Assembly (NCBI GenBank): GCA_035690945.1
Contig: DASSJY010000003.1
Span: 8,900 to 72,899 of the forward strand
Length of the DNA: 64,000 nt
Direction: 5' to 3'
DNA from: Gammaproteobacteria bacterium
GTDB taxonomy: Bacteria > Pseudomonadota > Gammaproteobacteria > Natronospirales > DASSBR01
Shown here in pieces: positions 45,251 to 55,997 of the stretch. The position numbers were made by a program, and so were the translations under genes. A model generated the notes under the pieces. The model was not told the origin of the DNA, ran no database searches, and saw nothing but the letters and a program-made list of their open reading frames with translations. How positions within the stretch are numbered: the first letter of the stretch is position 1; each line of letters opens with the position of its first letter.

Positions 45251-46162
45251 CTAGGCTCGAAACAACTCGTACCGGCGCTCAAGCGCCTGCCTCGCCGGCC
45301 GTTGCGCAGCCTTGGCGGGAAGTAAAAGCGACTCGTTGTGCAGCGCCTGCAAGCCGTACCTGAGCATCGGCCCGTCAACTTCATCCAGCACGTCGCGCCG
45401 AACCTCAATCACGTAATCCGGTCGCACGCCGATAATGCCGTGGTCGAACGCGGCATGATGAATCTTGCACAGAGACAGCCCATTGGAAACTTCCGGATGT
45501 CCTTCCGGATCGGTATCCGGAATGATGTGCGCTGCATCCAGCAATTCCCGATGCCGCAGATGACACATCGCGCAGTGCGTCCGGTAAGCGTCGAGAACGC
45601 GTTCGCGGAAAGACGCCTGATGCAGACGCCGCTGAACGGCCGCTGTCGCGTACTGCCGTCGGAATGTTGCGGACTCCGGTTCCTCTGCCCCGCCAGTCGC
45701 CGCTAAACGTTCCTCAAATGTGCCGGCTACGTCTGCCATAACGGTGAACTTCAAGGCCGCCCGATCGTCTCCCGTCACAAACACCGGCTTGATGACCGCG
45801 TAGCGACCAACGGTCACCGCGAATAAATAGATTAATGGGACGTTGTCGCGCATTGCATTGCGTAGCCCGACGTTGTCCCGGTGTTGCGGGTTCGTGCCGC
45901 GATAGCTGTAGGAAAGTCGATGCGCGTCTTCAAACCGGTCCGGGTATGGCCCGTTAAGGACGGTCGTGATCGTCAGCGGATAGTCGCAGCCGCGCGGGGT
46001 GAATATCCCTTGCGGCGAAACAAGCGGGATACGCCGGTCGTCCAATTCAAAGCCCGCGGAAAGAAGCGCCCGCGGCAGCACGTCCCCGTGCTGGACAAGT
46101 TGTCTGTTAACCCATTGGAAGGTGCGGGTTCGGACACGTATGTCCCACGATGCAGTGGACAT
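45251..46162 (-). CDS. HNH nuclease (HNH_2-type) with an uncharacterised ~190-aa N-terminal domain; possible modification-dependent restriction enzyme
   Basis: C-terminal CAMCHLRHRELLDAAHIIPD...VSNGLSLCKIHHAAFDHG is the HNH_2 pattern. The N-terminal domain contains YSYRGTNPQHRDNVGLRNAMRDNVPLIYLF. There is no obvious SD before the ATG at 46162. Confidence 0.65.
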   Translation of the reverse strand: MSTASWDIRVRTRTFQWVNRQLVQHGDVLPRALLSAGFELDDRRIPLVSPQGIFTPRGCDYPLTITTVLNGPYPDRFEDAHRLSYSYRGTNPQHRDNVGLRNAMRDNVPLIYLFAVTVGRYAVIKPVFVTGDDRAALKFTVMADVAGTFEERLAATGGAEEPESATFRRQYATAAVQRRLHQASFRERVLDAYRTHCAMCHLRHRELLDAAHIIPDTDPEGHPEVSNGLSLCKIHHAAFDHGIIGVRPDYVIEVRRDVLDEVDGPMLRYGLQALHNESLLLPAKAAQRPARQALERRYELFRA

Positions 46163-46223: not shown

Positions 46224-46508
46224 CTAAAGCAAGTCGTGGGCTTCCATCTCACCATGAATCTCTCGAATTTCGCGATTTAGTTGCGCAACGTATTCACCAG
46301 CGACTTGAGAAAATAGGTCTTCTCCTACTTCCTCCAGTTTGATCTCAAATACGCCGGCCTTGATTCGCGTTACGAGCTTATTGAACGCGCTTTTTACGGC
46401 ATTAGGCTTGTCGTCAGAGATCGGAATGCTGATCTGTTCAGTGCCAACTCCGATCCTGATGAAGCGGTTGCCGTCTTCGCTTACCACTGTCGCCTTAATT
46501 ATGTCCAT
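46224..46508 (-). CDS. 94-aa acidic protein of unknown function, translationally coupled to the PHP-ATPase gene
   Basis: The ATG at 46508 (MDIIKATVVSEDGN...) lies inside the last codons of the upstream gene (14-nt overlap). GAGG is 8 nt upstream. The composition matches the AT-rich island. I recognise no family. The longer start at 46541 is less likely. Confidence 0.5.
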   Translation of the reverse strand: MDIIKATVVSEDGNRFIRIGVGTEQISIPISDDKPNAVKSAFNKLVTRIKAGVFEIKLEEVGEDLFSQVAGEYVAQLNREIREIHGEMEAHDLL

Positions 46509-48639
46509 AGATCGTGCCTCGCTCTCCAAATGCCTCTTCACCGCCTTCGAGAGTGCTCATGCTGATTTGCTTCCAGTCAAGTTGGTCCGTCGCATCATCA
46601 GAATTTACCAAACTATTCATGAACGGATTGCCGGCGTAGGTGCTATATCCCTCTTTTCCGTGGTGCCGGTAAATGGAACTATAAGGAAGTGTCCGTACTG
46701 CGATATTTGCATCATGAGTCGAAATAAAGACCTTCTTGCCCGCCCGAGCACGCTCCTTAATCAGCGGCACAATGACGTCACTAATATATTCGTTACCCAA
46801 ACTTCGCTCCGGCTCATCAAGGATGTAGATTTCTTTATCTACTCCCAATTCCTTTTGCAACATCACCATGGATGACTCACCGCTCGAGGGCGAATAGGGA
46901 TTTCCGTCCAGTGCGAAGTACCGTTTGAAGAGAAGCAACTCATAAACTGTGTTGATGGTTTCTATATCCTCGATATCGTTGAGGTCCGAAACGTGCTGAA
47001 AGAGATCGTCCGCGTATGCACATTGAAGAATTTTTCGTACGGAATTGACAAACTTTTTCTGTGACCCCTTCTTTACTCCCGTCAGGCTCGAGAGAGCGCC
47101 ATCGGTAATGCTTCCCTTTTGGAAGCGGAACTCCGTCCTGAGTTGTAGTAGTCCTTTACTTGGGCCGAGACTTCCAATATGTTCAATTTGCGTAGGGAGT
47201 TCCGTGTCGACCCCTTTAATGATCTCCGCGGCGTTTAGTTCAACCTTAATTCGGTTCATGGCGTAGTCGCGGAAACCTGTAGTTGTCGGCTTGGCGGGCA
47301 TCCCCGTTTTTCGGGCAACTTCGCTGCGAAAAGTTTTAATCGCAGAATTGAGCAAGAAAATCTCTTTCCAACCTGTGAATGCCTGCCATTTGCCATCGCG
47401 CAGGCGCTGGAGTAATTTTGCTAAAATCCGCGTTACTTCCGTGAATTCATCTCCGCTTAGCATATTCAGCACAGCAGTAGACTTGGGTAGAAATTCGACA
47501 AACTCAGCGGTTCGTTTTACTGCCTCATTAAATTCGCCGAACTTGCGTTTGGCGCCGCCCTCTTCTTCTGGTTCGATATTCGTTAGCAGAATCTTCTTTG
47601 CGTTCTTGTTGGTGCTTTTCGCCGCGAAGTAAAGAACGTACTTGCTCAGGCTGGTAACTGCAACTTCATGCGCGTTCCGTAGGGCCTCGATTTCGTCGGA
47701 ACAATAGTTGATTTCGTGCGTATTGAGATTGATTGCCAAGTCCTTCCCTTTGGTATCAAAAATCTCATTGAGTCGGTCACTCGCGGATTCATAAACTCGC
47801 GCGTCGATTCCGTTCTCCGAGTAGTGTCTAGCAATGGCCTTGAGAATGCATGATTTGCCGGTTCCTTTAGCGCCGAAGATAACGTTGATGTCGTTATATA
47901 CCTTCATTTGCAGCGTCGAACCATCTTCAAATGGATGCAGAAGGAGGCTTTCGGACGTCTTTCGATCCATGGCCGTATTAATCGTCGTCGGATCTTTCTT
48001 CAATAACAGGCAAAAATGTTCGAAGCTGTCCACTGGCAGCCGAAGATCCGGAAGATCGCGAGATAGCTCTTCGTATTTTGCCCAATCTTGAAGGTCAGAC
48101 CCGTAGATAGAAGATCGCCCGTGGGATATATATATACCTGCCGAAATCGAATTGGTCACCTCTTTGATAACGCATTCGGGGTTACTTGTTTTGGTTTCCA
48201 GCGCCTCAATCGCGTCGTCCGGAAGGTTAGGTTTCTTTTGCTTGTAATGGGCGACATATAGCGGATGGAAGGCATCAAACGCCTCTACGACCTCGTCGAT
48301 CGTCGCTGTAAAGCTGTCTGGATTGGAGCCGCTAGTTAGTATTTCGACTGCCGCAGAAAGTTCCGTAGCTCGCGCGGGTGAAACGATTACCAACAAGTGG
48401 CCTCTCACGCCTCCTTCCAAGACATCGAGCTCAACCCCAGGCCAGACTTGCACCTCTCCATCTAAAAGGCTCGCCATCTGCTGATATTGAGCCAAGTCGA
48501 CAGCATTATGGTTAGTGATAGCGATGATCTTGACATCTGTGGAAAGAATCGCCCCGCAGAAATCGGATGGAGAAATCTCTCTCGTCGGCGCATCACCGGA
48601 CTTGCATTTCTTCGTGTGCGCGTGGATGTCGATCTTCAT
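46495..48639 (-). CDS. PHP-domain phosphoesterase fused to an ABC/SMC-type ATPase (Ppl-like candidate defence protein)
   Basis: PHP metal-ligand pattern: IDIHAHT, ITNHN, GVELD, GHLLVI. Walker A GAKGTGKS (res 256-263), signature-like SSGESSM, Walker B IYILDEPE and STHD near the C-terminus. AGGTGG lies 8 nt before the ATG. Confidence 0.85.
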   Translation of the reverse strand: MKIDIHAHTKKCKSGDAPTREISPSDFCGAILSTDVKIIAITNHNAVDLAQYQQMASLLDGEVQVWPGVELDVLEGGVRGHLLVIVSPARATELSAAVEILTSGSNPDSFTATIDEVVEAFDAFHPLYVAHYKQKKPNLPDDAIEALETKTSNPECVIKEVTNSISAGIYISHGRSSIYGSDLQDWAKYEELSRDLPDLRLPVDSFEHFCLLLKKDPTTINTAMDRKTSESLLLHPFEDGSTLQMKVYNDINVIFGAKGTGKSCILKAIARHYSENGIDARVYESASDRLNEIFDTKGKDLAINLNTHEINYCSDEIEALRNAHEVAVTSLSKYVLYFAAKSTNKNAKKILLTNIEPEEEGGAKRKFGEFNEAVKRTAEFVEFLPKSTAVLNMLSGDEFTEVTRILAKLLQRLRDGKWQAFTGWKEIFLLNSAIKTFRSEVARKTGMPAKPTTTGFRDYAMNRIKVELNAAEIIKGVDTELPTQIEHIGSLGPSKGLLQLRTEFRFQKGSITDGALSSLTGVKKGSQKKFVNSVRKILQCAYADDLFQHVSDLNDIEDIETINTVYELLLFKRYFALDGNPYSPSSGESSMVMLQKELGVDKEIYILDEPERSLGNEYISDVIVPLIKERARAGKKVFISTHDANIAVRTLPYSSIYRHHGKEGYSTYAGNPFMNSLVNSDDATDQLDWKQISMSTLEGGEEAFGERGTIYGHN

Positions 48640-48724
48640 GGCTACACCACCTGAAGCTGTTGGCTTCGGCTCCGTATGGAGCCCGCTTGGGGGGGGTCGC
48701 TAGGGATAACCCCTGTTCTTAGTT

Positions 48725-48753
48725 CTTATAGCCAACGACGTCGTGTAAATCAA
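48725..48753 (-). promoter_or_regulatory. Sigma70-like promoter for the PHP-ATPase gene
   Basis: The minus strand reads TTGATT-N17-TATAAG (-35 at 48753-48748, -10 at 48730-48725), about 85 nt upstream of the ATG at 48639. Confidence 0.4.
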
Positions 48754-48839
48754 CCCACAGTTGGGACGCAAGCTCGGAGGCTATAAGACGAGAACTGGAC
48801 TCCAATTGGTGGTTTTTGATCGGCCTAGGCCCTTCTGTG

Positions 48840-51800
48840 TTAGCGTCCAGTTGCGCTCGCGGACTCAGAGATGACGATCAGGCCATCGCCGTTGCGCTGG
48901 ATGCCGGGCTGAGCTGTCATATATTCGAGACCGTCGGCCATTCGCTCGCGGGTCTTCTGAGTCAGGCGCTGAAATCCCAATATTCGCATGGCCTCACGGA
49001 CTAGCGCATCTTCCGTCATGCTGACGTAGCTCTCCAGCACCTGCCTGAGCGCGTTCGCAATTTCCGGCAGCGGAATTTCGTCGGAAGAACGCTTGGCTTC
49101 CGGAACGCCGCCTGGCACACGCACCCGCCGATAGCTGATGGGATCTTGGTTGCGTCGCCATATGACTACATCGCCATCTTCGTCCGTCACAAACACGTCG
49201 GACCGGCGGAGCGCACCTTCTATACGATGGAGTAGTTTCTGGGTGACCTGCTGAAATCCCCACGCCTCGCCGACGCGACGGGCAAGAACCGGCAGCAGCA
49301 CCGGCCCTTCGACGTCTGCCACCTCGTGTATTTGCCGCACGAGCACAATATCCGAGGCGCCTTCATAGATCGCCGATTGTTCGCCGGGTACGAGGTCGAG
49401 TTGGCAGGGCTGGTATTTGGCGGTAGCCGCGGTGCGGCGCGTGGCTTGGTTGAAAACATCCCCGGCCGTTATGCGCAGTCCGTCGCTCTTAGTGGACCCA
49501 CGAGTGGCATTAGGCTCGTTCGAGAGAGCTGCAGCGGGTACTCTCGTTTCCGCCCTGGGAGGCTGTTCCAGTAGTTTGCCGAGAACCTTTTGAAGGCGGT
49601 CGATTTGCTGGGCCGGATCATGCCACCAGTCCGTGGACCAGACTCGGAGCACCGTCCAACCTAGATCCTCTAACACGGCCTGGCGAAGGCGATCACGATC
49701 GCGTGCCGTATGGGCACTGTGATAGGTAGCACCGTCGCATTCTACTGCCGCGAGATATTGCCCTGGCTTCCGAGGATCGAGGATGGCCAAGTCAATTCGG
49801 TAACCCGAGCAGCCGACTTGCGAATGGACTTGCCACCCCTTATCGAGAAGCGCCATTTTCACAGCATCTTCGAAGGGTGATTCGGTGTCGGCACCGGGGT
49901 CTACGGTGAGCTGCGAGTAGAGAGCCTGAGCGCCGCGTTCGGCGTATTCAAGAAAGCTCCGCAGGTCGGCAACTCCGCGTGAGTTGGTTCGGTTTAGATC
50001 GATGTCCGAATAACGGATACTTGAGTAGACGAGCAAAGCCTTACGCGCCCGCGTAATCGCTACGTTCAGTCGCCGCTGACCGCCCTCACGGTTGATCGCA
50101 CCAAAGCTGAGTGTGGAACGCCCGACTGCATCCTTTCCGAAGCAGATCGAAAACAAAATTACGTCCCGTTCATCACCCTGCACGTTCTCTAGATTCTTGA
50201 TAAATACCGGCTCTCGCGCGTCCTCGGCGAAATAACGGTCAAGCTCCGAGTCGCTGAGGCGCGCATTTTCCAGCAGATCCTCAATCAGTCGTTGCTGCTG
50301 AATATTGAAGGTTACGACGCCGATGGATTCGTGCTGGCGTGACGGATCGTGGAGTCGCTGAGCTATTTCGGCAACGATAGCTTCGGCTTCAGCTCGGTTG
50401 GTCCGCGACTTGCCCCGGTCATACACGGCGCCATCTACGTAACGGAACTCGACACCCATGCCTTCCAGGTATGGCGACGGAAAACTTAACAGACGGTTTT
50501 CGTAATACTCGTAATTGCTGAATGCGATCAGGCTTTCGTGGCGGCTCCGGTAATGCCATGTGAGCGGCAGAGACGGGATCCGAGCAGCCGTGCATTCTTC
50601 GAGTATGCTCTCCATGTCTGCGATTTCGTCTGGATCCGGTTCATCTCCAGCGTCGGCGGAGCGATTAAAGAAATTGGTTGGAGGCATCTGCTTGGAGTCA
50701 CCAGCGACGACCAAGCTCTTGCCGCGCGCGATGGCACCGAGTGCGTCCCATGGAGTGATCTGCGATGCTTCATCAAATACGACTACGTCAAACCAAGCGC
50801 GCCCCGCCGGCAGATACTGTGCGATCGACAAGGGGCTCATCAGGACGCACGGCGCGAGCCTGGGCAAAATGTTAGGGATGCTCTGGATAAGTTGGCGAAT
50901 CGGCATCAGGCCGCGCCGCCGCTTCGCTTGGCGCGCAAGGATTCCGATCTCTGAGTCGCCATGCGGTTCCCCGATTGGCCGGGGCACGCGCGCGGCCAAC
51001 GATGCTCGAACGTACTTGCGCGTAAGCTGGGTAAACTGGCTGTCCTGTTCGCGAAACCGTTCGAGTTTGCGCTCGTGCTCGGCGCTGAAAAAATCGCGAA
51101 CCGCGGGTTCAGTTGTCAGAGCGGTCTCAAACCACCATCGGTAAAGACTGCGTTCACAGGCCGCCGCCAGTTGGCCGCCCTCGAATGAACCGCTTTCATA
51201 GGCTGCAATCACGGGCCCGAATCCGCTTTGAATGGCACGATTTCGGGACCTGCGCCAATTGGTCCACTCACGGAGACGGCGCGCATTGGTGCTGAAGAGT
51301 CGGCAGGTGTCGATGAGGCCGCCCAAGTAATCTGCGCCGGCGCCTCCGAACCTGTCAAAATCCAGTTCCAGGGACTGCACCAGTTGATCACGTGCTTCCG
51401 TGAAAACCCGAAAGGCTTCGCGGTAAGCAATGAAGTCGCTTCCAATGGTGCCATCCGGCCGAAGAAGTTGCGGATCAGCGCATGCTATTACCGCCCAAGA
51501 ATCCCGTAGCGCGCGCGCACGCTCCGGGTCTGCATCGCTAAGGCTGAGCGCCGCGCTACGCAGACGGCCGCTCCAAATCTGTAGCCCGTGAATTTCGTCC
51601 CAGTTGCTTTCGCCGGGACGCCAGAAGCGGCCCAGCACGTGCCGCGCATCATCAGACTGCGACGAAAGCAGGTTTTCCTCCTGTTGAACTTGGACTCCCA
51701 GCGCGAGCAACGGGTCGATTGAATCGGGAGCAAGTTTTGCCTTTGTCCTTTGCGTCGCCCTAAGCGCCTTTGTGACGCGCCGCCGGAGAAGCCAAGCCTT

Positions 51801-54758
51801 CATGAACCAGCTTTGATCCGCGAGCTGCCACAGCTTGCGAAGCGCCGCCAGGTCGAGCTCAAGAATCTGCGGCTGATACTCTTGGAGGAGATCCTGCCTA
51901 AGGGCGTCGCGGCGCTTTCCATGCGCAATCCAGTCGTCAAGTTTGGCTTCGAGTTCTTTCCAGTCATCCTGCGCCAGCAGCGCGCGGGGCGGAGCGGGGC
52001 AGTCCAGAAACAGCTTTGTTAGTTCGTGCATCTGTTCGAGCTGGCGCAGCGACCAACCTTGATCCGCTAATTTGAGCCGTGTGGACACGGAGCGTGCGGC
52101 TTGCAGTAGCGCCACGATTGACTGGTGCAATTTTGCGGTGCCGTCGGCGGCATCACGGTCCAAAGCTGGCGTCCACTGCATAGCGCAGACAATGTCAAAG
52201 CGCGGGTTTCCGATTTCATCCCGGATCTTCGCGGCCGTGGCGGTTTCGTCGAGGAGTTCCAGCATGGACGATAGATTGTCGCCGTCAAGCACTTCCAGCG
52301 ATGGCCACGAAGCCGCGACAGCTGGCGCATCGTTCAGCGTCAGTAGATGGCCGATCGCGCGGTAGAGGCTGAGCCCATTGCTGCGCTGCCGATGGAGCCC
52401 TTCCACATAGTCGTTGAGAGCCGACCGCAAATCCGCGAGTTTGACCGCCTCTCGTTCCCAGTCGACTTGCGCCTGTTCCGCAGTGATTGCAAGTGGACGA
52501 GCCAGCTGCTCGACAACTTCGCGCTTCCGAGCTTTTTTGGAATGTAGTTCAAGACAGAAAGGCCCCAGTCCGACCTTATCAAGCCGATCGTAGACAACGT
52601 TCAGCGCCGCCGCTTTTTCTGATACGAATAAAACCGTTTTTCCGTTCATCAGGCACTGGGCAACAATATTTGCGATAGTCTGGGACTTGCCGGTACCTGG
52701 CGGCCCCTCCAATACGAATGTCCGACCTTCAGCAGCAGCGAAGATGGCAGCCAGTTGCGACGAGTCAGCGGGCAGAGGGCAGAACGTATCTTTTGGGTGA
52801 TACTCACGATCAAGCCGGTCCGGTTGAGGAAACTCGCCGTCGTCGCCGAAGGACTCGGTTGCGTGGTTGAGCAGATGGTCGACCACAGAGCTTTGCATGA
52901 TCAATTCCATGTGATCCTGCAGGTCCTTCCACATCAGGTATTTATTAAAGGAGAACAGCCCCAGCGCGACGCGCTCCTGAACCTCCCACCCCGGCAGGTC
53001 ACGCACTGCGTGGCGCACGATGTTGATTATTTGGGGGATGTCGACGCCTGCATCATCTGTCGGCAACGTCTCGAGTGCGCGCAGGTTGAGATCGAAGTCG
53101 CGCTCCAGTAACTGCAGTAGCGAAATATTGATGATCGTGTCGTCGTCATGGCTACACAGCGTAAAGCCGTGGTTGACGGAGCGACGGCTCAATTCAACCG
53201 GCACCAGCACCAGAGGCGCAAGACATGGCTCGCTGCGCTGCTGCGGTACCCACGACAGAAATCCAATGGCTAGATATAGCGTGTTAGCTCCGCCTTCGCT
53301 CTCCGCTTCCTTGGCGGCCCGATAGATCTCCAAAAGGTGGCGGTCCAGGCGTTCTGATCCGAGGACTGAATGCAGACGTCCGGCCTGCATTTCATCGCTG
53401 ATATATCCTTGAAGGGGGTTCTCCCCGGTGCGCGCGATGTAGACATCTGCCTGACGACCGTCGCCGCGCTCCATCAATCTCTCGTTCGGCAAGATCCGGA
53501 ACTGGCTCCCCTCCGCTAAATGATCTTCTAGGGCAGCGGGATCTGCTACCTGCAGTACGACCGTTTTCTTGCTTTCTTTGAAATTCAGCAGGCGGTTGTT
53601 TAGCGTGAGATCCAGCAACATGGCGCGCCAACGCTCGAGGCGGTTCTGCGGGGTTTCTTTTTCCGCCGCGCCCGACAGTCCATCATCCCAAGCCGGTAGG
53701 TCTGGAATGTCAAAGACCGCTTCGTTCTTGACCTTCTGGGCCGGTTCAGCAGGGGCTGTTGCGGCGTTTGCACCGCGAATCGGTAGTGGCTGGATCCGGT
53801 TATGACGTGCTCGCGCGACGTCGATGAACAGACGGAAATCCTCTTCCTCATTAAGCCGGCTACGCGCCTCAGCCACGGCGGTATTGAAGTCGACCGCACG
53901 AGTGGCGGCAGTCGATTCGAACGCGCAGATGTCGCGCATATCCACACGCTTGCGCAATGACAGGAGGTCATCACTGGCTGCAGTCTCAAATGACTCGTCG
54001 TGCAGCCAGACGCCCGGCAACGCGTGCCCGCTGAAGAAGACGATTACCGGATGAAGACCAGCTTGCTCAAGACAAGCCGAAAAAAGCAACGTGCTATCAA
54101 GGCACGTTGCAAGGCGCGTCGATTCAATCCGATCCGGCGTCCGAATCTTCTGGCCGCGCTCCTCGAAGCTGGCAGGTGGACTACAGTAAGCAATATTCGA
54201 TTGCATCACGGTGGCGTAAATCGAGGCCGCAATTGCCCAAACGCGTTTCCGATCTTGCTGCTGATAGCCGTCGAGGGCGCCGCTACCAGTGTGCTTTTCA
54301 AGAACGATCGAGGCGGCGCGAAGATACCGCTCGGTTGCTGGATGGTTCGGAAACGAAAAAGCAGCTATTAGCTCAGGGATGGATCCAATACCAGCCCATT
54401 CGTCATACGCAAGGATGTTGATGGGCAAACTCTGATGGGCTTCCGTTTGGTCGCCAGCCAAGACACTGACAGCGAGCTGACCCCGTAGTCTTTCCGCCAA
54501 GCCGCCAAGGTACCCCGGCGATAGCGTCAAGTCGACGGGTCGCAGTTCGTACGACTCGCCCGGGCTTATGCTGCTAATGCGTGTGCGATAAAGTTCCGCA
54601 AATCCCGGATCGCTCTGCACCTCGACGACGATGTTTTCGACAGTTGTTTCGCCTGTGTTTGCGAGGACGATCGAACGGATTACGGGGACCGCGTTTTGCT
54701 GTCGCGCAAAGTTTACGCGCTCATCGAATTCGACGAGTTTGATTTGAATTCGGGACAT
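48840..54758 (-). CDS. 1972-aa multidomain protein: beta-sandwich + transglutaminase-like Cys/His module, DUF4011, SF1 (Upf1/DNA2-like) helicase with large insertion, Vsr/DUF559-like endonuclease, DUF3320 (Hhe-like candidate defence protein)
   Basis: TCLDSTLLFSACLEQAGL...SGHALPGVWL (Cys219/His245). DUF4011-like LLDLTLNNRLLNFKESKKTV. Walker A LEGPPGTGKSQT (685-692), Walker B VVFDEASQ (~1327), VAGDSKQMPP, WHYRS, VQGDERDV, RRLNVAITRARK. GYRIDLAI...AVECDGATYH...GWTVLRVWSTDWW (about 1650-1712). The C-terminal segment VEGPVLLPVLARRVGEAWGF is DUF3320-like. Confidence 0.9.
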   Translation of the reverse strand: MSRIQIKLVEFDERVNFARQQNAVPVIRSIVLANTGETTVENIVVEVQSDPGFAELYRTRISSISPGESYELRPVDLTLSPGYLGGLAERLRGQLAVSVLAGDQTEAHQSLPINILAYDEWAGIGSIPELIAAFSFPNHPATERYLRAASIVLEKHTGSGALDGYQQQDRKRVWAIAASIYATVMQSNIAYCSPPASFEERGQKIRTPDRIESTRLATCLDSTLLFSACLEQAGLHPVIVFFSGHALPGVWLHDESFETAASDDLLSLRKRVDMRDICAFESTAATRAVDFNTAVAEARSRLNEEEDFRLFIDVARARHNRIQPLPIRGANAATAPAEPAQKVKNEAVFDIPDLPAWDDGLSGAAEKETPQNRLERWRAMLLDLTLNNRLLNFKESKKTVVLQVADPAALEDHLAEGSQFRILPNERLMERGDGRQADVYIARTGENPLQGYISDEMQAGRLHSVLGSERLDRHLLEIYRAAKEAESEGGANTLYLAIGFLSWVPQQRSEPCLAPLVLVPVELSRRSVNHGFTLCSHDDDTIINISLLQLLERDFDLNLRALETLPTDDAGVDIPQIINIVRHAVRDLPGWEVQERVALGLFSFNKYLMWKDLQDHMELIMQSSVVDHLLNHATESFGDDGEFPQPDRLDREYHPKDTFCPLPADSSQLAAIFAAAEGRTFVLEGPPGTGKSQTIANIVAQCLMNGKTVLFVSEKAAALNVVYDRLDKVGLGPFCLELHSKKARKREVVEQLARPLAITAEQAQVDWEREAVKLADLRSALNDYVEGLHRQRSNGLSLYRAIGHLLTLNDAPAVAASWPSLEVLDGDNLSSMLELLDETATAAKIRDEIGNPRFDIVCAMQWTPALDRDAADGTAKLHQSIVALLQAARSVSTRLKLADQGWSLRQLEQMHELTKLFLDCPAPPRALLAQDDWKELEAKLDDWIAHGKRRDALRQDLLQEYQPQILELDLAALRKLWQLADQSWFMKAWLLRRRVTKALRATQRTKAKLAPDSIDPLLALGVQVQQEENLLSSQSDDARHVLGRFWRPGESNWDEIHGLQIWSGRLRSAALSLSDADPERARALRDSWAVIACADPQLLRPDGTIGSDFIAYREAFRVFTEARDQLVQSLELDFDRFGGAGADYLGGLIDTCRLFSTNARRLREWTNWRRSRNRAIQSGFGPVIAAYESGSFEGGQLAAACERSLYRWWFETALTTEPAVRDFFSAEHERKLERFREQDSQFTQLTRKYVRASLAARVPRPIGEPHGDSEIGILARQAKRRRGLMPIRQLIQSIPNILPRLAPCVLMSPLSIAQYLPAGRAWFDVVVFDEASQITPWDALGAIARGKSLVVAGDSKQMPPTNFFNRSADAGDEPDPDEIADMESILEECTAARIPSLPLTWHYRSRHESLIAFSNYEYYENRLLSFPSPYLEGMGVEFRYVDGAVYDRGKSRTNRAEAEAIVAEIAQRLHDPSRQHESIGVVTFNIQQQRLIEDLLENARLSDSELDRYFAEDAREPVFIKNLENVQGDERDVILFSICFGKDAVGRSTLSFGAINREGGQRRLNVAITRARKALLVYSSIRYSDIDLNRTNSRGVADLRSFLEYAERGAQALYSQLTVDPGADTESPFEDAVKMALLDKGWQVHSQVGCSGYRIDLAILDPRKPGQYLAAVECDGATYHSAHTARDRDRLRQAVLEDLGWTVLRVWSTDWWHDPAQQIDRLQKVLGKLLEQPPRAETRVPAAALSNEPNATRGSTKSDGLRITAGDVFNQATRRTAATAKYQPCQLDLVPGEQSAIYEGASDIVLVRQIHEVADVEGPVLLPVLARRVGEAWGFQQVTQKLLHRIEGALRRSDVFVTDEDGDVVIWRRNQDPISYRRVRVPGGVPEAKRSSDEIPLPEIANALRQVLESYVSMTEDALVREAMRILGFQRLTQKTRERMADGLEYMTAQPGIQRNGDGLIVISESASATGR

Positions 54759-55082: not shown

Positions 55083-55997
55083 CTAATCGCCGGCAAGCAT
55101 GGAAGCCAGTTCGGGGATGCCGATGACGGCGACGCTTTCGGCTTTCTGGTAGCGCTCTTCGCCGGAATAAACGATGAAGCTGCAGTCCGGCTTCAAATCT
55201 GCGCGGGCGTGGTGGAATCCCTTGTCGAGCTTGGGAGCGAGGCTGCGCTTGATTTCCACGGCCCAGCGCTTGCCGCCGGGCAGATCCAGCACCAAGTCTA
55301 TTTCCGCGCCGGCCGAAGTCCGATAGAAGCAGGCTTGGGTTCTTTCCGGCGCGGCGCTCAGCAGATTTTCTATGACGAAGCCTTCCCAGCTTCCGCCGGC
55401 GACCGGATGGCCGAGCACTGCTTCCCGGTCGTCGAGACCCAGCAGCGCGTGAGCGATGCCGCTGTCGCGCACGTAAACCTTGGGCGATTTTACGAGTCGT
55501 TTGCCGACATTCGCGTGGAAGGGCTGCAAGCGCCGCACCAGCAACAGGTCGACCAGCAGGTCGAGATAGCGGGCGACGGTTTTGCCGTCGACGCCGAGGC
55601 CACGTGCGAGTTGAGCCGCATCAAGCGTTCCGCTGTGCATGTGCGCGAGCATCGTCCAGAAGCGGCGCAGCGTTTCGGCCGGCACTCGCGGCCCCAGTTG
55701 CGGAATATCCCGTTCCAGGTAGGTGCGAATAAAGTTTTCGCGCCAGACGGCGCTGGCCTCGTCAGATGTCGCCAGAAAGCTGTCGGGGAAGCCGCCCCTG
55801 ATCCAGAGCGTTTCTTGTTGGCCACCGTCGATTTCGAGTGCACCAGCCGGGGGCCAGTTCTCGCATTGTTGCATTTGAGCCAGTGGGGGATATCCTCTCG
55901 AGTTACCATCGCACAGGGCAACGTAGCTGCGCATCGCGAGACCCATAGTTCTTCGCGCAACAAGCTGACGCAGCCGTACGCTGCTGCAATTCCGCAA
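55083..55997 (-). pseudogene. 5'-truncated AAA_14/DUF4143-family ATPase gene (only the C-terminal two-thirds retained)
   Basis: From ...TLWIRGGFPDSFLA onward the ORF matches the post-Walker region and DUF4143 part of COG1373-type ATPases (HSGTLDAAQLARGLGVDGKTVARYLDLL, KSPKVYVRDSGI, EIDLVLD). No Walker A or AAA_14 N-domain is present, and the first ~45 aa look unrelated. Homology starts at about the position of repeat copy B. Confidence 0.6.
55852..55873. repeat. Direct repeat copy B (GGCCAGTTCTCGCATTGTTGCA)
   Basis: See copy A. It sits at the point where similarity of the DUF4143 ORF to its family begins. Confidence 0.7.

What the first reader, a model, noticed from the sequence alone, without database searches (positions are those of the whole stretch)
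46224..48639. PHP phosphoesterase / ABC-ATPase fusion with a translationally coupled 94-aa partner: candidate two-gene defence module
Seen: a 714-aa ORF whose first ~180 aa carry the PHP metal-ligand pattern (IDIHAHT, ITNHN, GVELD, GHLLVI). The rest is an ABC/SMC-type ATPase split by a ~330-aa insert (Walker A GAKGTGKS at 256-263, signature-like SSGESSM, Walker B IYILDEPE, STHD). Its TAA (46495-46497) lies inside the next ORF. An ATG at 46508 with GAGG 8 nt upstream opens a 94-aa acidic protein (MDIIKATVVSEDGN...EMEAHDLL) with no motif I recognise. The 14-nt overlap implies translational coupling. The pair occupies the AT-richest part of the window and has its own promoter-like element. Known: as I recall, a single-gene PHP+ATPase anti-phage system (ppl) was reported by Gao et al. 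2020. ABC-ATPase plus nuclease fusions or pairs (OLD, Gabija, PARIS, Septu) are a recurrent defence design. Inference: the PHP domain is the effector, the ATPase is the sensor, and the coupled small protein is an unannotated third element (inhibitor, antitoxin-like or adaptor). That would make this a variant not covered by the single-gene description.
Basis: partly seen in the sequence, partly recalled or inferred. Interest (0 to 1): 0.8.

Follow-up and report, generated by a model that had tools for sequence, protein, structure and literature searches.

The report
PHP-nuclease/ABC-ATPase with coupled small partner
A real, widely conserved two-gene cassette (a PHP phosphoesterase fused to an ABC ATPase, plus an overlapping ~95-aa acidic partner) sits in a defence islet; it is a divergent branch of the untested PADLOC candidate system PDC-M49, not the single-gene Ppl system.

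Summary
A 714-aa ORF (46495-48639, minus strand) carries intact PHP metal ligands and all ABC-ATPase motifs. A 94-aa ORF (46224-46508) starts 14 nt before its stop.

The small ORF is a real gene:
- It lies immediately downstream in every locus fetched that includes the large gene's 3' end (81 by tblastn, plus divergent L081 checked by eye).
- The overlap is 14 nt in 67 of 82 loci.
- Median dN/dS is 0.29.
- The Tyr codon that forms its ATG is TAT in 77/77 loci, against 61% TAT elsewhere in the gene.
- No third gene is conserved.

The large protein is not Ppl (20 bits, cutoff 1000) and not TrlF (81 bits, cutoff 350). It is a distant, collinear relative of PADLOC PDC-M49A.

A 23%-identical pair on an E. 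faecalis plasmid is bona fide PDC-M49A plus PDC-M49B, with the same overlapping ~100-aa partner. Payne et al. 2024 list PDC-M49 among 145 untested candidates. The two-gene design was therefore already catalogued for a sister clade. The window's small protein matches none of the PDC-M49B models, and its predicted fold has no significant match.

The most likely function is an ATP-gated PHP nuclease defence module with an obligate small regulatory subunit. The mechanism is inferred, not shown.

The parts
46495..48639 (-). Gene A: 714-aa PHP phosphoesterase / ABC-ATPase fusion
   Evidence: ORF. Hits PADLOC PDC-M49A at 6.9e-33 and NCBIfam TrlF at 81 bits, below its cutoff. At least 1,249 homologue clusters.
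47965..48639 (-). PHP domain (about aa 1-225). Ligands H6, H8, D16, H44, E70, H81, H131, H173 and D182.
   Evidence: The ligands are invariant in 75 homologues. AF2 pLDDT is about 85-90 for residues 1-160. Foldseek hits RNase AM PHP 7ug9 at E=6.5e-6, plus 9etk, 2yb1 and the Pol III alpha PHP domain.
47851..47874 (-). Walker A GAKGTGKS (aa 256-263)
   Evidence: Sequence. K262 is invariant apart from one gapped sequence. Pfam ABC_tran 26.5 bits at 251-277. PDB AriA and PtuA heads.
46888..47850 (-). Insert of about 320 aa between Walker A and the ABC signature. Mostly helical and the most divergent part of A.
   Evidence: Secondary structure (low confidence). Mean pairwise distance 0.60, against 0.28-0.47 for the other domains.
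46870..46887 (-). ABC signature SSGESS (aa 585-590)
   Evidence: S585, G587 and E588 are invariant.
46807..46830 (-). Walker B IYILDEPE (aa 604-611)
   Evidence: D608, E609 and E611 are invariant.
46711..46722 (-). H-loop STHD (aa 640-643)
   Evidence: H642 and D643 are invariant.
46224..46508 (-). Gene B: 94-aa acidic partner with a predicted beta3-alpha-beta-alpha fold
   Evidence: Conserved downstream of A in every locus that includes A's 3' end. Median dN/dS 0.29 and median pI 4.6. 580 homologues, all hypothetical with no Pfam domain. AF2 pLDDT 85. No significant fold match.
46495..46520 (-). Coupling junction: SD-like GAGG (46520-46517), B's ATG (46508-46506) inside A codons Tyr711-Gly712, and A's TAA (46497-46495). 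The overlap is 14 nt.
   Evidence: The overlap is 14 nt in 67 of 82 loci, 11 nt in 12, 20 nt in 2 and a 2-nt gap in 1, and the start is always ATG. The junction Tyr codon is TAT in 77/77 loci, against 61% elsewhere in A and 34% in GC-rich copies. An SD-like tetramer is present in 75/78.
48640..48839 (-). Upstream intergenic region. It holds a weak promoter-like TTGATT-17-TATAAG (48753-48725) and a 10-bp perfect inverted repeat (48724-48738 / 48774-48788).
   Evidence: Read by eye. Not found by the consensus scan. Inverted repeat I3.

Best explanation
This is a self-contained, horizontally mobile two-gene cassette. It is most probably an anti-phage or anti-mobile-element defence module, and it belongs to a divergent clade of the PHP-ATPase + small-partner architecture that PADLOC lists as candidate PDC-M49.

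Gene A fuses a catalytically intact PHP phosphoesterase of the nuclease type (like RNase AM/YciV) to an ABC ATPase of the OLD/AriA/PtuA/HEC-02A kind, which carries a ~320-aa helical insert.

Gene B is an obligate ~95-aa acidic subunit. It is made by translational coupling: its SD and ATG are written inside A's conserved C-terminal ERGxIYG codons, so B is made wherever A is translated.

Inferred mechanism, by analogy with PARIS, Septu, Gabija and Lamassu. The ABC-ATPase part oligomerises and senses an infection cue, either a phage protein or an aberrant nucleic acid. ATP binding or hydrolysis then licenses the PHP nuclease to degrade nucleic acid. B binds A and gates it, most likely restraining the nuclease or mediating trigger recognition.

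Shown here: gene reality, pairing, coupling geometry, intact active sites, family relations and context. Inferred: the defence function, the substrate and B's role.
For: B is a real, selected partner:
- B lies downstream of A in 81/83 loci by tblastn, plus L081 by eye, and also on S. aureus, E. faecalis and P. damselae plasmids.
- The overlap is stereotyped and the start is always ATG.
- dN/dS is 0.29.
- The junction codon is TAT in 77/77 loci.
- The A and B distance matrices correlate at r=0.93.
- No third gene is conserved.

Both enzymes look active:
- PHP ligands and ABC motifs are invariant in 75 homologues.
- The PHP fold matches RNase AM, Cv1693 and the Pol III alpha PHP domain.
- The ATPase head is closest to HEC-02A, AriA, OLD-type ATPase-Toprim, PtuA and GajA.

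Defence context:
- A hits PDC-M49A, and the E. faecalis relative is bona fide PDC-M49A+B.
- PDC systems were derived from genes embedded in BREX, DISARM and Type I RM loci. L003 has the pair between hsdS and hsdM.
- The window islet holds HNH, B, A, ProA (2204 bits) and a PDC-S01 remnant.
- Neighbours elsewhere include integrases, RM genes, AbiEii, PbeA and PD-T7-3.
- The cassette has low GC and a patchy distribution across bacterial phyla and archaea.
Against: - No experimental evidence exists for this family or for PDC-M49. No paper names it, and its source paper calls it an untested candidate.
- Many neighbours are housekeeping genes, and I could not quantify defence-island enrichment.
- No homologue was found in the phage genome collection, and only 2 IMG/VR contigs carry it.
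- The ATPase part of the AF2 model is unreliable (pLDDT below 50), so the insert's architecture and any A-B interface are unknown.
- B has no informative homologue or fold match, so its role is a guess.
- B lies downstream of the putative toxic enzyme, the reverse of the common antitoxin-first order.
Confidence: 0.6

Rival explanations
1. Addiction or toxin-antitoxin-like stabilisation module of mobile elements. A is a toxic nuclease-ATPase and B is its labile protein antitoxin. The main role is maintenance of plasmids and islands, not phage defence.
For: Relatives sit on S. aureus, E. faecalis and P. damselae plasmids beside IS257, an Fst toxin, ParA and recombinases. B is small and acidic. 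The B fold gives faint hits to HicB-like antitoxins, which share its beta-beta-beta-alpha-beta topology (E 0.07-0.12). Integrases are the commonest neighbour.
Against: B has no DNA-binding domain and lies downstream of A. Coupling ties B's synthesis to A's, which does not give B the excess typical of antitoxins. Most copies are chromosomal and sit among defence genes. The HicB hits are not significant. This rival also overlaps mechanistically with abortive-infection defence.
Confidence: 0.15
2. Housekeeping nucleic-acid processing or repair complex. On this reading it would be an SbcCD/Rad50-Mre11-like or RNase AM-like ATP-dependent nuclease with a small accessory subunit, unrelated to conflict with phages.
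For: The PHP fold is closest to the RNA-processing exonuclease RNase AM and to polymerase proofreading PHP domains. ABC ATPases with inserts act in DNA repair. Some neighbours are housekeeping genes.
Against: The distribution is patchy and HGT-like across distant phyla and archaea, with variable neighbourhoods. The GC content is anomalous. The cassette is embedded in a Type I RM locus and adjacent to defence genes. About 6 of 83 copies are disrupted. The ATPase head is closest to defence ATPases.
Confidence: 0.07
3. A and B are made as one polypeptide by programmed +1 frameshifting near A's stop, so that B is really A's C-terminal domain.
For: B is in the +1 frame relative to A, and the overlap length is strongly conserved.
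Against: B always has its own ATG, preceded by an SD-like motif at canonical spacing (75/78 loci). Overlap lengths of 11, 14 and 20 nt and one 2-nt gap all occur. I saw no slippery motif in the junction sequences printed. In the 1.84-billion-protein search, no A-length (~700+ aa) protein carried a single B-like match. The two long hits (976 and 2862 aa) are multi-stretch repeat proteins.
Confidence: 0.03
4. The locus is simply an instance of the known single-gene Ppl system, and the small ORF is incidental.
For: It has the same domain vocabulary (PHP plus ATPase). There is a weak hit to the C-terminal part of the Ppl models.
Against: Ppl NCBIfam scores 20.2 bits against a cutoff of 1000, and PADLOC Ppl scores 19.7 bits over profile positions 776-887 only. 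A is 714 aa, against model lengths of 882 (NCBIfam) and 894 (PADLOC) positions. The small ORF is universally conserved and under selection.
Confidence: 0.02

Closest known systems
PADLOC phage defence candidate PDC-M49 (PDC-M49A + PDC-M49B; Payne et al. 2024, bioRxiv 10.1101/2024.01.29.577857, cassettes FAM_00021>>FAM_01695 and FAM_00021>>FAM_02682)
   Same: A ~680-714-aa protein with an N-terminal PHP domain and an ABC ATPase, collinear from first to last residue. An ~100-aa acidic protein is encoded immediately downstream on the same strand and overlaps A's stop by 11-20 nt, with the SD inside A's last codons. It is found on mobile elements and in or near RM systems.
   Different: Window A is only ~23% identical to a bona fide PDC-M49A and scores 112 bits where a true member scores 873. 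Window B matches none of the three PDC-M49B models, and hhalign finds no similarity to the E. faecalis B. PDC-M49 itself is untested.
Ppl (Gao et al. 2020; NCBIfam NF042955, PADLOC PDLC02208)
   Same: A PHP domain plus an ATPase in one polypeptide, with anti-phage activity. The mechanism was still described as uncharacterised in 2024 (PMC11482910).
   Different: Ppl is described as a single gene with model lengths of 882-894 positions. Here A is 714 aa and scores 20 bits against a cutoff of 1000. This family also has an obligate small partner.
TrlF of the Photorhabdus temperature-restriction locus (NCBIfam NF045780; bioRxiv 10.1101/2020.06.02.129163)
   Same: TrlF's NCBIfam model (TrlF family AAA-like ATPase, 944 positions) is the best NCBIfam hit to A at 81 bits, over 3 stretches. 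The best stretch covers A's PHP N-terminus. The source paper gives TrlF's annotation as a histidinol phosphatase.
   Different: The score is below the cutoff (81 against 350). The TrlF operon partners are TrlG (AlbA_2 + HATPase_c_4) and a 79-aa regulator TrlR, neither of which accompanies the window family.
ABC-ATPase + nuclease defence systems: PARIS (AriA/AriB), Septu and retron I-A (PtuA/PtuB), Gabija (GajA/GajB), OLD, HEC-01/02
   Same: The ATPase head is of the same kind: AriA 3e-7 and PtuA in PDB sequence searches, HEC-02A 6.7e-11, plus OLD-type ATPase-Toprim and GajA hits. The design logic of an ATPase coupled to a nuclease effector is also shared.
   Different: The effector here is a PHP phosphoesterase fused N-terminally, not a TOPRIM, HNH or NERD domain. 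The second gene is a ~95-aa orphan protein, not a nuclease or helicase.
Lamassu small subunit LmuC
   Same: A small protein encoded with an ABC/SMC-like ATPase. 35 of 45 and 20 of 82 members of the B family give weak hits to PADLOC LmuC model PDLC03874, with a best E-value of 1.8e-6.
   Different: In the one member whose alignment was reported, the similarity covers only B residues ~50-85. The window B itself scores E=0.042. No LmuB or LmuA equivalent is present. A profile search of PDB chain sequences at E<=10 returned no chain named as a Lamassu protein. I treat this as a lead only.

Membership tests
Ppl (NF042955 / PDLC02208) | End-to-end match above the curated cutoff (1000 bits) | tested here: not met
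   20.2 bits with no stretch passing. PADLOC Ppl gives 19.7 bits over profile positions 776-887 only.
Ppl (NF042955 / PDLC02208) | Single-gene system | tested here: not met
   An overlapping partner gene is conserved in every locus that includes A's 3' end.
TrlF family (NF045780) | Match above the curated cutoff (350 bits) | tested here: not met
   81.4 bits over 3 stretches, the best covering residues 2-97.
TrlF family (NF045780) | Operon with TrlG (AlbA_2 + HATPase_c_4) and TrlR | tested here: not met
   No third gene is conserved around 82 loci.
PADLOC PDC-M49 | Large protein matches the PDC-M49A models | tested here: inconclusive
   E=6.9e-33 (112 bits) on PDLC04680 and 6.6e-20 on PDLC04678, collinear at the N and C termini. 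The P. damselae homologue aligns 2-711 to 3-669. A bona fide member scores 873 bits. This shows homology but not clear membership.
PADLOC PDC-M49 | Small protein matches the PDC-M49B models | tested here: not met
   No PDC-M49B hit for 45 family members scanned at E<=10 or for 82 scanned at E<=0.01. The E. faecalis B scores 105 bits. hhalign between the window-clade B and the E. faecalis B gives a probability below 1%.
PADLOC PDC-M49 | Two-gene cassette A>>B on one strand, with a ~100-aa B directly downstream | tested here: met
PHP (polymerase and histidinol phosphatase) superfamily | Conserved His/Asp/Glu metal-ligand motifs and the PHP barrel fold | tested here: met
   H6, H8, H44, E70, H81, H131, H173 and D182 are invariant in 75 sequences, and D16 is Asp in 74 with one Glu. 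Foldseek gives 7ug9 at E=6.5e-6 and probability 1.0, plus 9etk, 3o0f, 2yb1 and 2hpi. Pfam PF02811 itself is not hit by the window protein but is recorded for homologue P0210.
ABC-type ATPase (OLD/AriA/PtuA-like) | Walker A, ABC signature, Walker B with a catalytic Glu, and an H-loop | tested here: met
   All are present and conserved: K262 in 74 of 75 with one gapped sequence, and S585/G587/E588, D608/E609 and H642 invariant. ABC_tran scores 26.5 bits against a cutoff of 25. AriA and PtuA are hit in the PDB.
Lamassu (LmuC as the small subunit) | Small protein homologous to LmuC, with LmuB SMC-like ATPase and LmuA effector genes present | tested here: not met
   LmuC hits are weak and partial. 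A does not rank LmuB among its top PADLOC hits. No LmuA is present. No chain named as a Lamassu protein appears in the PDB profile search.
Type II toxin-antitoxin pair | A labile antitoxin that neutralises the toxin by direct binding and autoregulates the operon | not testable with these tools
   This needs expression, toxicity and binding assays. B has no recognisable DNA-binding domain.

The most novel reading that the evidence does not exclude
B is a new class of small acidic gating subunit for nuclease-ABC-ATPase immunity proteins. It could be a protein mimic of nucleic acid, or a decoy that occupies the PHP/ATPase substrate site until a phage cue displaces it. On this reading the whole PHP-ATPase superfamily works with fast-evolving, mutually unrecognisable ~100-aa partners. 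That would include the Gram-positive plasmid clades, and perhaps Ppl loci where such an ORF has been overlooked.
Probability: 0.2. Interest if true: 0.7.

Novelty: new variant of a known kind. Interest (0 to 1): 0.45.

Why it matters
PHP-ATPase proteins are among the least understood defence effectors. As of 2024, Ppl was still described as uncharacterised.

This family is large: at least 1,249 clusters at 90% identity. It spans Proteobacteria, Bacteroidota, Planctomycetota, Verrucomicrobiota, Nitrospirota, Firmicutes and archaeal MAGs. Distant relatives sit on S. aureus and E. faecalis plasmids.

Showing that an obligate, translationally coupled ~95-aa subunit accompanies the enzyme across the clades examined gives a concrete handle for mechanism. 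A single silent change in A (TAT to TAC at Tyr711) removes B's start codon.

There is also an annotation gap. The PADLOC v2.0.0 PDC-M49B models miss this clade's B, so the system is probably under-called.

The pay-off is incremental rather than paradigm-shifting, because the architecture is already listed as a candidate.

Tried and rejected
- **Ppl and TrlF membership.** Both scored far below their cutoffs.
- **Third conserved component.** All-vs-all clustering of 703 neighbour ORFs found none.
- **Identity of B.** Pfam and NCBIfam gave nothing. PDB sequence profiles gave nothing significant. Foldseek against PDB and BFVD gave best E-values of 0.015 and 0.009 with TM<=0.43. The exhaustive profile search found 139 clusters, almost all stand-alone ~95-110-aa proteins, with no informative fusions. 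P0268, P0302 and P0305 look chimeric.
- **LmuC lead.** The hits are recurrent but weak and partial, so I did not accept them as homology.
- **Homology between window-clade B and PDC-M49B.** hhalign was negative. Only three near-identical PDC-M49B sequences were available, so the result is inconclusive rather than disproving.
- **Full-length structure of A.** The alignment was shallow (>=70% identity), giving pLDDT 51. Only the PHP domain is usable.
- **Promoter.** The consensus scan was negative.
- **Insertion scars.** No meaningful flanking direct repeats were found.
- **Phage genomes.** No homologue was found.
- **Database time-outs.** Three early homologous-protein runs timed out.
Full report
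**Observation**

- Gene A is 46495..48639 on the minus strand, 714 aa.
- Gene B starts at ATG 46508-46506 and ends at 46224, 94 aa.
- A's TAA at 46497-46495 lies inside B, so the two overlap by 14 nt.
- GAGG at 46520-46517 lies 8 nt upstream of B's ATG.

The pair occupies the AT-richest stretch of the window. GC is 0.46-0.53, against 0.57-0.70 elsewhere. The drop begins at B's stop codon.

Only the 'own promoter-like element' is not confirmed. The sigma-70 scan finds nothing upstream on the minus strand. By eye there is a weak TTGATT-17-TATAAG at 48753-48725.

**Is the small ORF a gene?**

Yes. I fetched 86 loci that encode homologues of A, from GTDB species genomes and IMG/VR. They span 34-76% identity and many phyla: Proteobacteria, Bacteroidota, Planctomycetota, Verrucomicrobiota, Nitrospirota, Firmicutes, and Nitrososphaeraceae and Methanosarcinales MAGs.

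Of the 83 loci that include A's 3' end, 81 have a tblastn-detectable homologue of B immediately downstream. The other two are L080 and L081, the 34%-identity Clostridia loci. I inspected L081 by eye and it also has B (MNQIILEVK...EYVIELQRELDSI), overlapping A by 20 nt.

The evidence for selection on B is as follows.
- The overlap is 14 nt in 67 of 82 loci, 11 nt in 12 and 20 nt in 2, with a 2-nt gap in one. The start codon is always ATG.
- Median pairwise dN/dS of B, excluding the overlap, is 0.29 over 120 pairs.
- B's ATG is built from A's Tyr711 (TAT) and Gly712 (GGN). That Tyr codon is TAT in 77/77 overlapping loci. Other Tyr codons in the same genes are TAT 61% of the time, and only 34% in the 11 GC-rich copies, where the junction is still TAT in 11/11.
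- An SD-like purine tetramer precedes the ATG in 75 of 78 loci. It is encoded by A's conserved C-terminal ERG residues.
- Independent gene calls on two Logan contigs carrying the identical locus, and RefSeq annotation of plasmid relatives, also call the small gene.
- The A and B pairwise-distance matrices correlate at r=0.93.
- No third gene is conserved. The commonest neighbour family, a tyrosine integrase, is in 7 of 82 loci.

**What is gene A?**

The N-terminal domain is a PHP phosphoesterase.
- The AF2 model is confident only for residues 1-160 (pLDDT about 85-90; 51 overall).
- That part matches the RNase AM/YciV PHP domain (7ug9, E=6.5e-6), V. cholerae RNase AM, BAD_1165, Cv1693 and the Pol III alpha PHP domain. 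This places it in the nuclease-type branch.
- The putative metal ligands H6, H8, H44, E70, H81, H131, H173 and D182 are invariant in 75 homologues, and D16 is Asp in 74 with one Glu.

The remainder is an ABC ATPase.
- Walker A K262, signature S585/G587/E588, Walker B D608/E609 and H-loop H642 are conserved in those 75 homologues. K262 is gapped in one sequence and the rest are invariant.
- Its head is most similar to defence ATPases: HEC-02A (6.7e-11), AriA, OLD-type ATPase-Toprim, AbiLi, PtuA and GajA. AriA and PtuA are also the best PDB sequence hits.
- The ~320-aa insert is predicted helical and is the most divergent region.

**What is gene B?**

B is an acidic protein (median pI 4.6). The AF2 model is confident (pLDDT 85) with topology beta-beta-beta-alpha-beta-alpha.

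- It has 580 relatives in the 5.8-billion-protein collection. Those listed have no Pfam domain and are called 'hypothetical protein' where named at all.
- It has 139 clusters at 50% identity among 1.84 billion representatives, almost all stand-alone proteins of about 95-110 aa.
- No significant fold or sequence match exists in the PDB or BFVD.

Two leads are weak. A minority of family members hit PADLOC's LmuC model, with a best E-value of 1.8e-6; in the window protein's own alignment the hit covers only the C-terminal strand and helix. There are also faint, non-significant hits to HicB-like antitoxins of similar topology. I accept neither as homology.

**Relation to known systems**

A is not Ppl. 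It scores 20.2 bits on NCBIfam against a cutoff of 1000, and the PADLOC Ppl hit covers only the profile's C-terminal ~110 positions.

A is not TrlF either (81 bits against a cutoff of 350). TrlF belongs to the Photorhabdus temperature-restriction operon, whose partners are different: TrlG (AlbA_2 + HATPase_c_4) and TrlR.

The best match is PADLOC candidate PDC-M49A (6.9e-33), collinear at both ends.

A protein search of plasmids then found full-length distant relatives.
- P. damselae, 51% identity.
- Clostridium, 34%.
- S. aureus, 26%.
- E. faecalis, 23%.

In the three I inspected (P. damselae, S. aureus, E. faecalis), RefSeq annotates an overlapping ~100-aa 'hypothetical protein' downstream.

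The E. faecalis pair is bona fide PDC-M49. Its A scores 873 bits end to end and its B scores 105 bits end to end on PDC-M49B.

Payne et al. 2024 (bioRxiv 10.1101/2024.01.29.577857) derived the PDC systems from genes embedded in BREX, DISARM and Type I RM loci and call them 145 untested candidates. Their supplement defines PDC-M49 as the cassettes FAM_00021>>FAM_01695 and FAM_00021>>FAM_02682. That is one large family with at least two small-partner families. No paper in the library names PDC-M49.

So the two-gene design was already catalogued computationally for a sister clade.

The window's clade differs in two ways. Its A is only a distant relative, and its B is not recognised by any PDC-M49B model. 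Its B also shows no detectable similarity to the E. faecalis B.

The S. aureus plasmid B is homologous to the window-clade B (hhalign probability 96%, E=1.4e-9), even though the S. aureus A misses the PDC-M49A models.

The picture is a PHP-ATPase superfamily whose members, apart from Ppl and TrlF as currently described, carry a fast-evolving, positionally fixed small partner.

**Context**

In the window the pair lies in an all-minus-strand islet.
- An HNH protein like a phosphorothioate-dependent restriction endonuclease (45251-46162).
- B, then A.
- A full-length ProA (48840-54758; 2204 bits against a cutoff of 1500).
- An N-terminally truncated DUF4143/PDC-S01-like ORF (55083-55997).

Elsewhere the pair sits between hsdS and hsdM (L003). 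It also sits beside an Eco57I-like methylase and a BsuBI/PstI endonuclease. Other neighbours are integrases, AbiEii, PbeA, mad2, PD-T7-3 and Type I/IIG RM genes, but also housekeeping genes.

I could not compute a formal enrichment statistic.

**Mechanism (inferred)**

This follows the logic established for PARIS, Septu/retron I-A, Gabija and Lamassu, from my own knowledge of those systems.

The ABC-ATPase module probably oligomerises and acts as the sensor or switch. The fused PHP domain is the nucleolytic effector. B is made in step with A by coupling and binds A as a gating subunit, whether inhibitor, adaptor or trigger receptor.

Both catalytic centres are intact and the pairing is obligate, which supports an active, regulated enzyme. 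Nothing here shows the substrate, the trigger or the sign of B's effect.

The rivals are an addiction or TA-like stabilisation role, a housekeeping repair or RNA-processing role, a frameshift fusion, and plain Ppl. I weigh each in the structured fields. The last two are essentially excluded.

**Verdict**

This is a new variant (a divergent clade with an unrecognised B family) of a known but untested candidate kind. Interest is moderate.

Noticed in passing
window 48840-54758 (-): A 1972-aa protein directly upstream is a full-length match to NCBIfam 'anti-phage protein ProA' (2204 bits, cutoff 1500). It also matches PADLOC PDC-S37 and is Hhe-like (DUF4011, SF1 helicase, MTES_1575 REase, DUF3320).
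   Followed up: partly
window 45251-46162 (-): A 303-aa HNH protein lies 61 nt downstream of gene B. It resembles phosphorothioate-DNA-dependent restriction endonucleases (62.6 bits, below the cutoff of 180) and hits PADLOC HNH PDLC04132 at 2e-22. It is not conserved next to the pair in other loci, and its GC (~0.61) differs from the cassette's.
   Followed up: partly
window 55083-55997 (-): A DUF4143 ORF matches only positions 170-417 of the 422-position PDC-S01 profile. It is probably an N-terminally truncated remnant of a defence ATPase.
   Followed up: partly
window 48724-48738 / 48774-48788: An inverted repeat with a perfect 10-bp core (TCTTATAGCC / GGCTATAAGA) lies in the intergenic region upstream of gene A. 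One arm overlaps the -10-like TATAAG. It could be an operator or an RNA hairpin.
   Followed up: no
L003 4683-10091: In a Bacteroidetes MAG the A+B pair is embedded between hsdS and hsdM of a Type I restriction-modification system. This is the 'guilt-by-embedding' situation used to define the PDC candidates.
   Followed up: partly
L075 6011-7358: Gene A is split after residue 338 by a ~1.35-kb insertion that carries a 388-aa ORF on the opposite strand, probably an IS element. B is still present downstream.
   Followed up: no
L021, L077, L022, L038, L069: Other copies of A look disrupted: frameshifts in L021 and L077, and in-frame stops at residues 358 (L022), 689 (L038) and 338 (L069). All are MAGs, so these may be pseudogenes or assembly errors.
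   Followed up: partly
L089 (S. aureus pCOL52-A5) and L090 (E. faecalis rep9a plasmid): Distant relatives of the cassette sit on mobilizable plasmids of clinical Gram-positive species. The S. aureus copy is beside IS257 and an Fst type I toxin. The E. faecalis copy lies between recombinase and Mu-transposase-like genes and a DUF4062 gene.
   Followed up: partly
P0305 (214 aa): In one protein cluster, an N-terminal ~140-aa region that looks by eye like an HsdR-N / PD-(D/E)xK nuclease domain is fused to residues 30-94 of the B family. It could be a real fusion or a chimeric gene call.
   Followed up: no
window 46506-46508 / Tyr711 of gene A: B's ATG is the TAT-G of A's Tyr711-Gly712. A single TAT to TAC change would therefore abolish B's start while staying silent in A, giving an unusually clean genetic separation of two overlapping genes.
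   Followed up: yes
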